A DNA stretch of 14,539 nt from Octopus sinensis (Eukaryota): assembly GCF_006345805.1 (NCBI RefSeq), contig NW_021825842.1, positions 1-14,539 of the forward strand, read 5' to 3'. The first letter of the stretch is position 1. The number at the start of each line of letters is the position of its first letter. Below the pieces are notes generated by a model. It was not told the origin of the DNA and made no database searches. It worked only from the letters and a program-made list of their open reading frames with translations. Of this stretch, positions 5,150 through 14,095 are shown in pieces. A program made the translations under genes and the position numbers.

Positions 5150-5302
5150 ATACATATGAATACGCACATACCTATAACTATATAATCATAGACATAATTA
5201 TGAGCGCATTTATATACGTACACATGTATGCAGGTATTTATTTATGAACCAAAGGGAGACCTCGGTAAGCAAATTGACAACAGAGATATCAGTCAGATTG
5301 CC

Positions 5303-5510
5303 CGTAAACACACCATCACTGGTTGTCAAGCGGTTGAAGGGGGAAAACGAAAGCAGAAAGACACAGACACATAGATATTTACAAACATACGACGGGATTC
5401 TTTCAGTTTCCGTTCACCAAGTCTACTCACAAGGCTTTGGTCGGACGAAGGTTATTACAAAAGAAACTTGCCCAAGGTACAATGCAGTGTCACTGAACCG
5501 GGAACCATGT
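5303..5510 (-). mobile_element. SINE family A, diverged central fragment
   Basis: cgtaaacacacc..ggttgtcaagcg..acgacggg..tttcagtttccgt..ctcacaaggctttggtcgg..acttgcccaaggt..gaaccatgt matches 7629-7905. Confidence 0.88.

Positions 5511-5686: not shown

Positions 5687-5735
<49 letters not shown>
5611..5735. repeat. (CA)/(TA)n microsatellite
   Basis: Direct. Confidence 0.95.
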
Positions 5736-5736
<1 letters not shown>

Positions 5737-5791
5737 GGAAATGTACTCGCATAGCAAGTAATTTGATCTGAGATCGTGTGCTGAAACGAAT

Positions 5792-6051
5792 ACAATTGCA
5801 GCGTGGAAGGTGTTTGTTAGCCATTTAAGAAACACACAAAAGCCGTTCGATTCACTTAAAAATTTAAGTTTAATTTGTCAAAATATTTTCGTCGCTAAAA
5901 TCTGCGATGCAGCACGGATTTTGTCAGTGAACAGGTCGCGGATTTTAGCGACGAAAATATTTTGACAAATTAAACTTAAATGTTGAAGTGAATCGAACGG
6001 CTTTTGTGTGTTTCTTAAATGGCTTACAAACACCTTCCACGCTGCAATTGT
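5792..6051. repeat. Long inverted repeat: arms 5792-5907 and 5936-6051, 28-nt spacer; probable inverted pseudo-LTRs of a Penelope-like element (element about 5736-6051)
   Basis: Arms of 116 bp, ungapped, 4 mismatches by manual comparison; (TA)n on both sides of the element; contains a hammerhead motif. Confidence 0.95.
5920..5969 (+). ncRNA. Minimal type I hammerhead ribozyme motif, G3:C8 core variant
   Basis: Stem I tttgtca(5920-26)/tgacaaa(5963-69); core GTGAACA(5927-33); extra G; stem II gtcgc(5935-39)/gcgac(5948-52); GAAA(5953-56); palindromic ATAT; U16.1=5961, H17=5962. Confidence 0.78.
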
Positions 6052-6724
6052 TATATATATATATTATGTATGTATACATTTGTGTGTGTATGTTTTATAC
6101 TTTTTGAAAGTGAAACTTCACACAACGCGAGTGAATTTCACCGTTACTATCTTCAGCCAAAATGAAAGTAATAAAATAAATGATGTTATATCTATACCAA
6201 AATAAACAGATTTTGAATGTGGATGTAAGTGTGTGTGTATTTGTGTGTGTATGTGCCTCTGTGCGCGCATTCATATACATACATATATATATATAAGTCG
6301 AAACAAAATCTATTGAAGCTTTCAGGCAATTTGAAATATTTCACTAACAACTACAACAACAACAACAACAACAAAAAGGAAGAAACAAGATTTCATATCC
6401 GAATGCGTATAAAAAGACGGAGCTGCTATGCTACCATATATGAAACTTTGCGGAGATGCAAAGATTACAAATGTTATTAACCTGTCTGCAATTCTAATAT
6501 ATTCCAAATGATTTTAAAGTTTTTAATATTCTTAATTCTCAATCCCAAATATATTAAGATAACATTGTTTCGGGTTGTCTTCTAAAAGCGTCTCTATGTT
6601 GATTATATCTTAATTTGAAAGGATTTCCAGTCAAACTATTATAATCTTTAGAAAGTGAATTATCTTTTGAATTCTATTATAAACGATGGAATTCTGAAGA
6701 CATAAATTGTTTAAGGAGCTTTTG

Positions 6725-7514: not shown

Positions 7515-7706
7515 GTGGCCATGCTGGAGCACCGCCTTTAGTCGAGCAATTCGACCCCAAGACTTATTCTTTATAAGCCTAGTACTTATTCTATCGGTCT
7601 ATTTTGCCGAACCGCTAGGTTACGGGGACGTAAACACACCAGCATCGGTTGTCAAACGATGTTGGGAGGACAAACACAGACACAAATACACACACACACG
7701 CATACA

Positions 7707-7748
<42 letters not shown>

Positions 7749-7947
7749 TATATATATATATATATATATAGATATATATATAACGACGGGCGTCTTTTAC
7801 TTTCCGTCTACCAAATCCACTCACAAGGCTTTGGTCAGCCCGAGGCTATAGTAGAAAACACTTGACCAAGGTGCCACGCAGTGGGAATGAACCCATAACC
7901 ATGTGATTGGTAAGCAAGCTATCTACCACACAGCCACTCCTGCACCT
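7515..7947 (-). mobile_element. SINE family A, near full length, with tRNA-like head and internal (TA)n(TG)n
   Basis: Minus-strand head aggtgcaggagTGGCTGTGTGGtag...ggGTTCATTCCcactgcgtggcaccttggtcaagtg has A/B boxes; body matches 13691-14070; extreme 3' end missing. Confidence 0.93.
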
Positions 7948-8024
7948 ATTTGTTAAGAAAATTCGACTGCTCTTTCTAGCATTTCGGACAACTCAGTTGA
8001 TTAAAGGCTTACGTGGCTGCTACT

Positions 8025-10023: not shown

Positions 10024-10463
10024 CTTTTATCTCTTATCTTTCATATGTTTCAGTCATTTTTGATTGCGGCCAAGCTGGAGCTCCCTCTTAAACAAATCCA
10101 AAGCAAGACTTTTTAAAAAAAAATTAAGCGTGGTACTTACTCTATCCGTGTACTTTTGCCGAGCCGTTAAGTTACAGGACGCAAACAAACCAACAACAGT
10201 TATCAAGCGGTGATGGGTGACAAACACACAAGCTCAAACGCATGCACACACATTCAGACATGCACGCACACACATACATACATATGTACAATATACCTAT
10301 ACAACGGGTTTCTTTTAGTTTCCATCTACCAAATCCACTGACCAGACTTTGGTCAGTCCGAGCCTATGGCAGAAGACCCTCTCCTAAAGTGCCACGCAGT
10401 GAAACGGAACCTGGGATCATAGTCGGGAAGCAACCTCCTTACTACGTAGCTTCACCTGTGCCT
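10024..10463 (-). mobile_element. SINE family A, full length but diverged
   Basis: tgtttcagtca..tgcggccaagctggagc..gtacttactctatc..ttttgccgagccg..ttccatctaccaaatccact..gtgccacgcagtg..cctgtgcct is collinear with 7515-7947 and retains the 3' end. Confidence 0.9.
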
Positions 10464-10906: not shown

Positions 10907-11221
10907 TGTTTGTTTGTTTGTTTGTTCCTTCTCGATCCACGCGTGGCTCATTAGGGCCGGTTTCCCAGTTTCCTTGGCGTATAGGTTACCCACCTGGACG
11001 GGACGCCGGTCAGTCGCAGGTGAGCTGCAAGATGTAGGAGAAAAGAGTGAGGGAAAGTTGTGGCGAAAGAGTCAGCAGAAGTTCGCCGTTACCTTCTGCC
11101 GGAGCCGCGTGGAGCTTAGGTGTTTCACTCATAAACATACACATCACCCGGTCTGAGATTCGAACCCGCTATTCCTCGACCGCGAGTCCGCTGCTCTAAC
11201 CACTAGGCCATGTGCCTCCAC
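10906..11221 (-). mobile_element. Full-length tRNA-derived SINE, family B2, (AAAC)n tail
   Basis: Minus-strand head gtggaggcacaTGGCCTAGTGGttagagcagcggactcgcggtcgaggaatagcggGTTCGAATCtcagaccggg; tail at 10906-10926; possible ataca TSD (10901-05/11222-26). Confidence 0.92.
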
Positions 11222-11363: not shown

Positions 11364-11410
11364 CGTGAATGGTAAGAGACATAACTTGAAAGCCATTACA
11401 GCCATGAATC

Positions 11411-11645
11411 TTTCAAAAACTCAAATCCCCCTTGAAAGGAAATTCAAAAATATGCGACAAGACACCTCTTCGCTATCCCCAGAAAACGAGTTCCAGGAAT
11501 GCTTCCATCAATGGAAACAACACCGGATAAAGTACGCGGCTTCTGAATGGGACATCTTTGAAAAGGATCAAATGTCAAATTGATATGTGTGTTGAAGTTT
11601 TGTTTTTATAGCACCAGTCCCGATATTTTTGGATCAAACTTCGTG
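11411..11645 (+). mobile_element. Mariner (Tc1/mariner) relic: degenerate transposase C-terminus plus right TIR
   Basis: Frame-shifted peptides FQKLKSPLKG / IQKYATRHLFAIP / ENEFQECFHQWKQHRIKYAASEWDIFEKD resemble the mariner C-terminus (FPKLK..L.G..F..W..RW.KC....G.YFE); TIR-like cagtcccgatatttttggatcaaacttcg at 11615-11643. Confidence 0.85.
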
Positions 11646-12139: not shown

Positions 12140-13276
12140 TTTTTTTCTTCTTTCAAATTTGCTATCATTTCTTGCCGAGTGTCTTCCCGACTCCTAGGGC
12201 AAAGAAACTCATAGTATACATTGGTAGGCCATTAAACCAAACTCAGTAGTTCGTTCATTTTTTTTTTTTTTCTTAAAGTTAAATTAAAATACATGAGCAG
12301 CAACAGTTCTCACATCGACAATGCTCTTCTCAATACGTGTGATGTACCAGTTAAGACAATCTTTTGCACTTCTTGCAGGGATGGTAAGCCAGGGATCATT
12401 CTCATATAATTTTCGGTTCCCTTCTTGATCATTCCTAGTGCTCCTACGATCACTGGTATTGTAACCGCCTTGAGATGCCACATTTTCTCAATTTCAATGA
12501 GTAGGTCTTTATATTTTCTGAGCTTGTCAAACTCTTTCGCTGAGATATTATGATCACAGGGGATGCTCATGTCGATCAATAAGCAAACTTTATTGTTTTG
12601 GTCTTTCACAACAATATCTGGTTTATTGGCCTTGTTGGTTCGGTCTGTATCCTGGAAAGTCCCACAGAATGGTTACATTTTCTCCTTCAGTTACAGCCTC
12701 AGGGTGGTGATTATACCACTTGTCGGCAGTTTTGATATTGTAATGCCGACTTATTAGCCAGTGGAGATATTGGCCAACTCTGTCATGTCTTAATTTATAC
12801 TCCACTGGTGCTAAGACTTTACATCCAGAGATTAGGTGGTCCACTGTTTCAATCATGTCGTTGCAGAATCGGCATTTTGGGTCTGCTCCATTTTTCATCA
12901 CATTGGCCTGGTAGTTCCGAGTTAATAGGCTTTGATCTTGAGCAGCCAGGATGAAACCTTCGCTCTCTGCTTTTAGCCCTGAGCTCCGTAGCCACTGATG
13001 GGTTTGCTTCTGGTCAACATCAGCTTGTTTGCTGTGGGTCACATATTTGCCGTGCAGAGGTTTCTCCTCCCACCTATCAGCCAATTGCTCGTGCGCTTTT
13101 TTCATTGCCATCATTTTCACCTTCTTTGCAACAATAGTTGCCGTACTTCCCTCGGGTTGTTCAGTTTGGGTATCCTGCACGAGATCAATAGCAAAGTTTT
13201 TGCTTTACTTTATGATAGAATGAAGCTTCTTTCGTCTCTCGTGATTTTCCACGAGCTTTAGCATCCAGTCATTCGA

Positions 13277-13688: not shown

Positions 13689-13690
13689 AT

Positions 13691-13829
13691 CATGGTTCTA
13701 GGTTCAGTCCCACTGCGTGACACCTTGAGCAAGTGTATTCTACTACAGCTTCGGGCCGACCACAGCCTTGTGAGTTGATTTGGTAGACGGAAACTGAAAG
13801 AAGCCCGTCGTATATATATATATGTGTGT

Positions 13830-13882
<53 letters not shown>

Positions 13883-14095
13883 GTGTTGTGTGTGTGTATG
13901 TGTGTGTGTGTTTGTGGCCCCAACATCGTTTGACAACCGATGCTGGTGCGTTTACATCTCTGATATCTAACGGTTCGGCAAGAGAGACCGATAGAATACG
14001 TACTAGCTTACAAAGAATAAGTCCTGGGGTCGATTTGCTCGACTAAACGCGGGGCTCCAGCATGGCCGCATTCAAATGACTGAAACAAATAAAAA
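13691..14095 (+). mobile_element. SINE family A lacking the A-box part of the head; internal (TA)n(TG)n
   Basis: catggttctagGTTCAGTCCcactgcgtgacaccttgagcaagtg...catggccgcattcaaatgactgaaacaaataaaaa; close reverse-complement match to 7515-7905. Confidence 0.93.

What the first reader, a model, noticed from the sequence alone, without database searches (positions are those of the whole stretch)
5920..5969. Non-canonical hammerhead ribozyme with a compensatory G3:C8 core
Seen: complete type I hammerhead topology with a 7-bp stem I, a 5-bp stem II, GAAA, a 4-nt palindromic stem III and a UU site, but the core is GUGAACA rather than CUGANGA. Known: positions 3 and 8 form a tertiary Watson-Crick pair, so C3G plus G8C is the compensatory swap. 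Minimal hammerheads with palindromic stem III occur in Penelope-like elements and are thought to cleave as dimers. Inference: the covariation suggests a selected fold that a CUGANGA-only search would miss, possibly marking an unannotated ribozyme-bearing repeat family.
Basis: partly seen in the sequence, partly recalled or inferred. Interest (0 to 1): 0.85.

Follow-up and report, generated by a model that had tools for sequence, protein, structure and literature searches.

The report
Swapped-core hammerhead in a Penelope retrotransposon
A 50-base stretch near the start of a jumping gene, present over 6,000 times in this genome, has the layout of a self-cutting hammerhead RNA with two paired core letters swapped, whereas related jumping genes keep the usual letters; it likely still cuts slowly, but cutting is untested.

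Summary
The motif is exactly as described. It is the minimal type I hammerhead in the pseudo-LTR / 5' leader of a young Penelope-like retrotransposon (RT + Cys linker + GIY-YIG, likely Neptune type). The window holds a truncated head-to-head insertion (5734-6051), one arm with the ~55-nt PLE 'tail'. Of 6,908 genomic matches with positions 3, 7 and 8 left free, 6,155 are G3:C8, 219 G3:G8, 37 C3:C8 and 20 C3:G8. The C3:G8 matches sit in other families, mostly related PLEs, with a homologous fold. So the swap is fixed in the family and covaries across families, not among copies. Old long copies often carry G3:G8, a possible intermediate, but the order is unresolved. Cleavage is untested. Copies come mostly from uncut RNA (85 of 116 arms span the cut site), and read-through RNA of this copy would fold into a giant hairpin that destroys the ribozyme. 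My searches found no natural G3:C8 core in print, but the key paper (Lunse 2017) was not held. This scan noted G3:C8 cores before in protist PLEs and phages (unchecked notes). Verdict: new variant of a known kind, interest 0.5.

The parts
5920..5969 (+). Minimal type I hammerhead motif: stem I 7 bp, stem II 5 bp, core with G3:C8, extra nucleotide after A9, palindromic stem III
5927..5933 (+). Core box with G3 (5927) and C8 (5932) in place of C3 and G8
   Evidence: sequence; 6,155 of 6,908 family matches have this state
5934..5934 (+). Extra nucleotide between A9 and G10.1, usual in PLE minimal hammerheads
   Evidence: PMC4209133 text
5956..5961 (+). 6-nt palindrome A15.1..U16.1; could pair only between two ribozyme copies (inferred)
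5962..5963 (+). Predicted cut site after U17, 56 nt before the ORF start codon
   Evidence: hammerhead numbering; ATG position; cutting untested
5906..6051 (+). Right arm: pseudo-LTR piece from the common 5' start (AGATG, +2) to the 'near' 3' end; no tail
6019..6051 (+). First 11 codons of the PLE ORF
   Evidence: same frame runs on into the RT ORF in L166/L190
5734..5907 (-). Left arm: 5'-truncated pseudo-LTR plus tail; holds only the 3' half of a hammerhead (5874-5907) and the first 30 codons of the ORF (5824-5735)
5734..5791 (-). PLE 'tail' (~55-58 nt), present on one arm only
   Evidence: meaning from PMC11167929
5629..5735 (.). (TA)n-rich insertion site, left flank (right flank 6051-6076); a target duplication cannot be read here

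Best explanation
The motif is the hammerhead ribozyme in the pseudo-LTR of a Penelope-like retrotransposon family that has fixed a compensated G3:C8 core pair, and it is predicted to cut slowly after U5962 only when paired with a second copy or helped by the element's protein. Shown: in full elements the motif lies 56 nt before the ATG of an RT + GIY-YIG ORF and again about 0.9-1.2 kb after its stop, and sister families carry a homologous fold with C3:G8. Inferred: RNA starts at AGATG about 15 nt upstream of stem I. The element's protein starts reverse transcription at two sites about 55 nt apart (near end and tail end), one on each DNA strand, giving head-to-head copies with 10-14-bp target duplications. 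Starting at the first pseudo-LTR/ORF junction yields the thousands of 150-200-nt copies, of which this window holds one. Inferred: the swap keeps the 3:8 tertiary pair, so cleavage is kept at a reduced rate, by pairing of the palindromic stem III between two pseudo-LTRs (tandem copies or two RNAs in one particle). Most inserted copies were made from uncut RNA, so cutting likely acts on a minority of transcripts or late. This particular copy is probably inert unless transcribed from its own start.
For: Element anatomy: L150 has a 1042-codon open frame with YVDD, a Cys linker and GIY-YIG, followed by the motif. PF01541 is matched at its cut-off on the C-terminal part. Atlas neighbours score 0.96-0.97, most with HTH_animal, RVT_1 or GIY-YIG. 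L190 has pLTR-ORF-pLTR with two motifs 4.36 kb apart. L166 runs from motif through tail into the ORF. Insertions: 54 of 74 head-to-head pairs not picked on their ends have one tail arm and one near-end arm; 1 has two tails, 1 has two near ends, 18 have an unreadable end. 26 of 35 non-microsatellite insertions have a duplication of 7 bp or more. State counts: 6,155 G:C, 219 G:G, 37 C:C, 20 C:G of 6,908. The sister family (54% aa) and the 20 C:G loci keep the fold with C3:G8. Across 20 rows, 83.8% of cells pair (slid controls 21-59%), with 8 two-sided cells against 3.5 in shuffles, 0/500. The family A core is otherwise fully canonical, with a 7-bp stem I and a perfect palindrome. PMC11167929 reports that C3G/G8C partly restores cleavage in a PLE hammerhead and that cleavage needs the protein; PMC8495972 says the same rescue for G8C. 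Natural tandem copies exist (four in a row in L189).
Against: No cleavage data. No pile-up of 5' ends at the cut site: 3 of 116 arms end there and 85 of 116 span it. The sister family also shows none (1 of 49), so this does not single out G3:C8. The stem III self-duplex is weak (-0.2 kcal/mol) and the two-strand minimum-energy fold is not the dimeric hammerhead. Copies with the mismatched G3:G8 core include long, once-amplified elements, and the young sister family tolerates C at position 9 and an imperfect stem III: activity may be dispensable. The 3:8 covariation is one evolutionary event. 17 of the 20 aligned rows were picked by a pattern that fixes their 5' half and 3:8 state, and percent paired did not beat the column shuffles (109/500). 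P0002 alone had no Pfam hit at E<=0.1 and no PDB relative. Read-through RNA of the window copy gives zero probability for stems I and II.
Confidence: 0.6

Rival explanations
1. The motif is a PLE hammerhead relic that no longer cuts; its fold is kept, if at all, as a structure for protein binding, promoter function or translation control, and the G3:C8 state arose by drift in a single source lineage.
For: Copies come from uncut RNA. G3:G8 elements amplified. The sister family has C9. PMC11167929 found hammerhead mutants insert normally in vitro and saw no reads ending at the cut site. Naiad PLEs thrive without canonical hammerheads (PMC8557442 passages).
Against: Two separate transversions restored exactly the 3:8 pair while the other nine core positions stayed canonical and the surrounding leader diverged beyond blastn recognition. 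All 20 typed long copies of the well-supported young clade are G3:C8.
Confidence: 0.33
2. The repeat is a non-autonomous retrozyme or SINE that spreads as a small circular RNA cut out by the hammerhead.
For: Most copies are short and ORF-less (lay depth far higher over the pLTR than the ORF). A few tandem copies exist. Animal retrozymes are proposed to derive from PLE pLTRs (bioRxiv 10.64898/2026.07.22.740005, part 1).
Against: Short copies are head-to-head, end at two fixed 3' sites inside the ORF start, and start at or after AGATG rather than at the cut site. They match the ends of the autonomous element base for base. Tandem arrays are the exception.
Confidence: 0.05
3. The motif is a chance by-product of a palindromic DNA element such as a MITE or foldback transposon.
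For: The insert is a 116-bp inverted repeat in (TA)n.
Against: Inner junctions vary between copies, target duplications are 10-14 bp and variable, and the arms are pieces of an RT element. The motif forms within one arm and is kept in sister families. Shuffles give 0 of 400.
Confidence: 0.02

Closest known systems
Minimal type I hammerheads in PLE pseudo-LTRs (Cervera and de la Pena 2014, PMC4209133)
   Same: Type I layout, extra nucleotide between 9 and 10.1, G10.1-C11.1, palindromic 15.2-16.2, U at 17, thousands of mostly solo copies, location in pLTRs; a 6-nt stem III as in Drosophila virilis Penelope.
   Different: Core is G3:C8. The paper's text and the representative motifs I read in its Fig. 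S3 show only C3:G8 or U3:A8. The extra nucleotide is G (their consensus is H, with one G example). Stem I is longer (7 bp).
Poseidon element of Anolis (PAc), Frangieh et al. 2024, PMC11167929
   Same: Hammerhead at the pLTR-ORF junction; two 3' ends that define a tail inside the ORF start; AT-rich targets; insertion from uncut RNA. Their engineered C3G/G8C mutant equals this natural core.
   Different: Here the swap is the natural fixed state; the hammerhead is wholly upstream of the ATG; the tail is about 55-58 nt; the protein has a Cys-rich RT-EN linker.
Neptune-clade PLEs (as described in PMC8557442 and PMC3846280 passages)
   Same: C-terminal GIY-YIG, Cys-rich linker between RT and EN, microsatellite (TA)n bias, inverted 5'-truncated pLTR, tail on one end, variable target duplication.
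   Different: Neptune versus Nematis was not separated by a tree with named references; the G3:C8 core is not described there.
Natural U3-A8 core covariants (Perreault et al. 2011, PMC3088659)
   Same: Two-sided change of the 3:8 tertiary pair in nature.
   Different: A transition pair (U-A) there, a double transversion (G-C) here; section 8 names no G3-C8 example (supplements not read).

Membership tests
Hammerhead ribozyme, minimal type I | Stems I and II around the core, G10.1-C11.1 | tested here: met
Hammerhead ribozyme, minimal type I | Core U4 G5 A6 A9, G12 A13 A14, A15.1-U16.1, H17 | tested here: met
   majority state in family copies
Hammerhead ribozyme, minimal type I | C3 and G8 as in the consensus CUGANGA | tested here: not met
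   G3 and C8 in 6,155 of 6,908 matches; filed as a variant, not as a consensus member
Hammerhead ribozyme, minimal type I | Watson-Crick complementarity of positions 3 and 8 | tested here: met
   G:C here, C:G in 19 of 20 aligned rows; one evolutionary event, rows partly picked on this state
Hammerhead ribozyme, minimal type I | Palindromic stem III able to pair between two copies | tested here: inconclusive
   perfect 6-nt palindrome, but duplex energy only -0.2 kcal/mol and not the two-strand minimum-energy fold
Hammerhead ribozyme, minimal type I | Rfam hammerhead model match | tested here: not met
   no hit at E<=10; canonical-core relatives also missed at gathering score, so not specific to the swap
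Hammerhead ribozyme, minimal type I | Self-cleavage after position 17 | not testable with these tools
   needs an assay; genomic 5' ends show no pile-up at the site
Penelope-like elements (EN+) | Single ORF with RT and C-terminal GIY-YIG endonuclease | tested here: met
   Pfam support is at or below cut-off
Penelope-like elements (EN+) | Direct pseudo-LTRs from partial tandem, inverted truncated pLTR, tail on one end | tested here: met
Penelope-like elements (EN+) | Variable target-site duplication, AT-rich or microsatellite targets | tested here: met
   26 of 35 non-microsatellite insertions; 87 of 122 flanked by microsatellite-like DNA
Neptune clade | Cys-rich linker between RT and EN | tested here: met
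   CxxxCxxC..H..C before the GIY-YIG motif in P0002; also a Nematis feature per PMC8557442
Neptune clade | Placement with named Neptune RTs in a tree | not tested
   tree held no named clade references
Non-LTR retrozymes | Tandem ORF-less monomers bounded by hammerheads | tested here: not met
   copies are mostly head-to-head or solo pieces of an autonomous element

The most novel reading that the evidence does not exclude
This family is a genomic record of a ribozyme crossing a fitness valley: ancestral C3:G8 (sister families) went to a mismatched, inactive G3:G8 form that still transposed (219 matches, six times the C3:C8 count, and 3 of 4 typed old long copies), and was then repaired to G3:C8, the state of the young clade that expanded to over 6,000 copies. 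That would show PLE hammerhead cleavage is dispensable for single rounds of transposition yet selected over the long term, with three natural constructs ready for direct comparison.
Probability: 0.3. Interest if true: 0.72.

Novelty: new variant of a known kind. Interest (0 to 1): 0.5.

Why it matters
The C3G/G8C swap is a classic laboratory control for the hammerhead's tertiary pair; here it is the natural, fixed state of a large and recently active retrotransposon family, invisible to CUGANGA-based searches. The role of PLE hammerheads is an open question (PMC4209133, PMC11167929, PMC8557442). One genome offers canonical (C3:G8), mismatched (G3:G8), swapped (G3:C8) and C9 versions in related elements with near-intact ORFs, which makes the question testable. 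The insertion anatomy also suggests why PLE hammerheads occur as thousands of solo copies: reverse transcription started at the first pLTR/ORF junction copies only the 150-200-nt leader.

Tried and rejected
Rfam scans: no hammerhead hit, uninformative. Sequencing runs: no RNA holder listed; four runs (X1, X5, X15, X17; organisms A, B, C, D as coded) were laid as contigs only, which cover the stretch but cannot show starts, ends, strand or expression. Metagenome scan: 2 relatives of 86 candidate stretches, both on short contigs without useful flanks. PDB search: 0 hits. Splice-acceptor reading of the YAG before ATGCAG: long copies look acceptor-like, but short copies share no upstream exon letters and the 3' pLTR has no GAG|GT donor; set aside, not excluded. 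Cap-derived G: 35 sites begin G+AGATG, but one is a long copy and by my reading about two thirds have the G (or GA) also templated by the opposite arm or flank, so this is weak. A downstream-promoter-element match at stem II depends on which start base is chosen; not claimed. Within-family covariation test: no two-sided stem changes, because copies decay neutrally. Tree of long copies (31 of 39 rows, 8 dropped as the same locus or assembly duplicates): order of G3:G8 and G3:C8 unresolved, G3:G8 clustering not significant (31 of 500 shuffles). Cut-site pile-up: absent in both families (family B sample was 40 sites among the first listed on one contig, most long pairs skipped). MITE/foldback and retrozyme readings rejected as above. 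Papers PMC5785218 and PMC1986816 were not held.

Full report
Observation. Stems I and II are the predicted fold (z -3.40). A hammerhead descriptor with any Watson-Crick 3:8 pair hits once in the window and never in 400 shuffles. Rfam gives no hammerhead hit, but it also misses canonical relatives.

Context. The motif lies in an insert at 5734-6051 with 116-bp inverted arms, set in (TA)n. The genome holds 5,162 exact copies of a 19-mer over the core, against 0 for the reversed control. Copies share fixed outer ends and vary at the inner junction. Of 122 unique head-to-head pairs, 74 were not picked on their ends: 54 have one arm ending at a near site and one running about 55 nt further (tail), 1 has two tails, 1 has two near ends and 18 have an unreadable end. 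Target duplications of 7 bp or more, mostly 10-14, were found in 26 of 35 insertions outside microsatellites; 87 of 122 are flanked by microsatellite-like DNA. This matches the inverted pLTR and tail described for Penelope-like elements (PMC8557442 and PMC3846280, passages) and the two RT start sites shown for PAc (PMC11167929, parts 1-2 of 4).

Parent element. Longer copies extend upstream into an ORF. L150 has a 1042-codon open frame with YVDD, a Cys-rich linker and a GIY-YIG end, and the motif about 0.92 kb after the stop. Pfam support is thin: GIY-YIG at its cut-off on the C-terminal part and nothing for the long protein alone. Atlas neighbours score 0.96-0.97, most with HTH_animal, RVT_1 or GIY-YIG. 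L166/L190 show partial pLTR, motif, tail, ORF (one frameshift) and a second pLTR, with the motifs 4.36 kb apart. The ATG is at window 6019, 56 nt after the predicted cut, so the motif is in the 5' leader; the window's arms hold the first 11 and 30 codons. The Cys linker points to the Neptune or Nematis clade; no named references were in my tree. A sister family's protein is 98% identical to one that a source labels Octopus vulgaris, so the host is probably an octopus.

The 3:8 pair. With positions 3, 7 and 8 free there are 6,908 matches: 6,155 G:C, 219 G:G, 37 C:C, 20 C:G and 477 other states. None of the 20 C:G loci has family A sequence downstream. Most show the homologous 3' half of the fold, 11 match the sister family's leader or tail beyond the picked pattern, and one has GIY-YIG sequence upstream. 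The young sister family (54% aa; 1,886 marker matches) has C3:G8 at the same place, the same tail anatomy, compensatory stem changes, and C at position 9. Over 20 aligned motifs, 83.8% of cells pair against 21-59% for slid controls, with 8 two-sided cells against 3.5 in shuffles (0/500); percent paired itself does not beat the shuffles (109/500). Seventeen rows were picked by a pattern fixing their 5' half and 3:8 state, and the 3:8 change is one event. Within family A, 117 unpicked arms show core changes at 32/818 and downstream changes at 640/11203, with no two-sided stem changes.

Possible intermediate. G3:G8 is six times as common as C3:C8. In a tree of 31 long copies, a clade with 100/99 support holds 20 typed copies, all G3:C8. 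Older copies outside it are G3:G8 in 3 of 4 typed cases (L163, L191, L192; L155 is G3:C8), in an unresolved fork, and the clustering is not significant (31/500). Against a simple source-lineage story: in 7 of 9 G3:G8-picked insertions where the partner arm could be read, the partner is G3:C8, although arms agree about 90% of the time at other diagnostic sites (for example 93 of 103 against 52 expected). G3:G8 also occurs in the youngest subfamily (4 of 30). A mutation hotspot or mixing of templates is not excluded.

Does it cut? Unknown. For: the rest of the core is canonical, the swap keeps the pair, and engineered C3G/G8C partly restores cleavage, including in a PLE hammerhead that needs its protein (PMC11167929; PMC8495972, one passage). 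Minimal PLE hammerheads cut weakly and only as dimers or with an extended stem III (PMC4209133, body text parts 1-3 of 4; PMC6765202, section 11). Against, or neutral: of 116 arms not picked on their 5' extent, 85 span the cut site, 38 start at AGATG and 3 end at the cut site; the sister family shows 1 of 49. The palindrome's self-duplex is weak. For this copy, RNA read through both arms folds into a -197.9 kcal/mol hairpin with zero probability for the ribozyme stems, while RNA starting at 5906 forms them with probability 0.65-1.0.

Mechanism, committed. Transcription likely starts at AGATG in the pLTR (inferred from the pile-up of 5' ends and the lack of a shared upstream exon). The protein likely primes reverse transcription at the near and tail sites on opposite strands of a staggered cut (inferred from anatomy and PAc). 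Priming at the first pLTR/ORF junction would copy only the leader, explaining the thousands of short copies. The swapped hammerhead is predicted to cut slowly as a dimer or with protein help, on a minority of transcripts. I put this at 0.6, a non-cutting relic at 0.33.

Novelty. PLE hammerheads are known. Natural 3:8 covariation in print, as far as I saw, is U3-A8 (PMC4209133 text and supplement file 2, parts 1-2 of 3, file 1 not searchable; PMC3088659 passages and section 8, supplements not read). Full-text searches for G3-C8 / C3G / G8C terms returned only engineered uses (also PMC3884650, passages). A search for octopus + Penelope + hammerhead gave nothing on this family (PMC6962438 passages). 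PMC6155905 and PMC2377424 were seen as passages, and the retrozyme preprint as part 1 of 5. Lunse 2017 and Przybilski 2007 were not held, so the claim 'not in print' is limited. Earlier notes of this scan report G3:C8 cores in two protist PLEs and in phages (unchecked AI notes); none exist for this genome. Verdict: a new variant of a known kind, well anchored by its relatives, activity untested; interest 0.5.

Noticed in passing
G000 genome-wide; L163, L171, L173, L177, L191, L192, L215-L244: Mismatched G3:G8 cores are six times as common as C3:C8 (219 vs 37) and occur in old long copies, yet often on only one arm of an insertion; cause unexplained (source lineage, hotspot or template mixing).
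   Followed up: partly
L151:6865-6912 and L152, L153, L158-L161, L275-L314: Young sister PLE family (1,886 marker matches) whose hammerhead has C3:G8 but C at position 9, an imperfect stem III and a mismatch in stem I; may be a second, possibly inactive, core variant.
   Followed up: partly
L017, L050, L053, L057, L241, L246, L265: About 10% of head-to-head insertions have arms from different subfamilies, suggesting two RNA templates per insertion in some events.
   Followed up: partly
L189:642-1236, L026, L052: Short head-to-tail tandem runs of the hammerhead-bearing leader (up to four on one strand), natural candidates for dimer cleavage.
   Followed up: no
L190:6872-8050 (3' pseudo-LTR): The ~1.2-kb pseudo-LTR is rich in (ATAC)n and has a 10-nt segment near its start complementary to the segment just upstream of the common 5' start, which also looks like a branch point plus acceptor.
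   Followed up: partly
window 12255-13275, minus strand: 5'-truncated, frameshifted non-LTR retrotransposon end with a CxxC..H..C knuckle and a PD..D-type endonuclease motif, inserted between (TTA)n and (TAT)n arrays; the likeness to R4/Dong-type elements is recalled, not tested.
   Followed up: no
window ~420-620, 960-1130, 5300-5510, 7520-7950, 10050-10460, 13690-14090: Several copies of one abundant SINE-like repeat, also present in dozens of fetched loci.
   Followed up: no
window ~1380-1610 and 10930-11220: Two copies of a second dispersed repeat with a tRNA-like end, found in 20-25 fetched loci.
   Followed up: no
window ~11380-11640, plus strand: Short frame ending that resembles a mariner transposase C-terminus (likeness recalled, not tested).
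   Followed up: no
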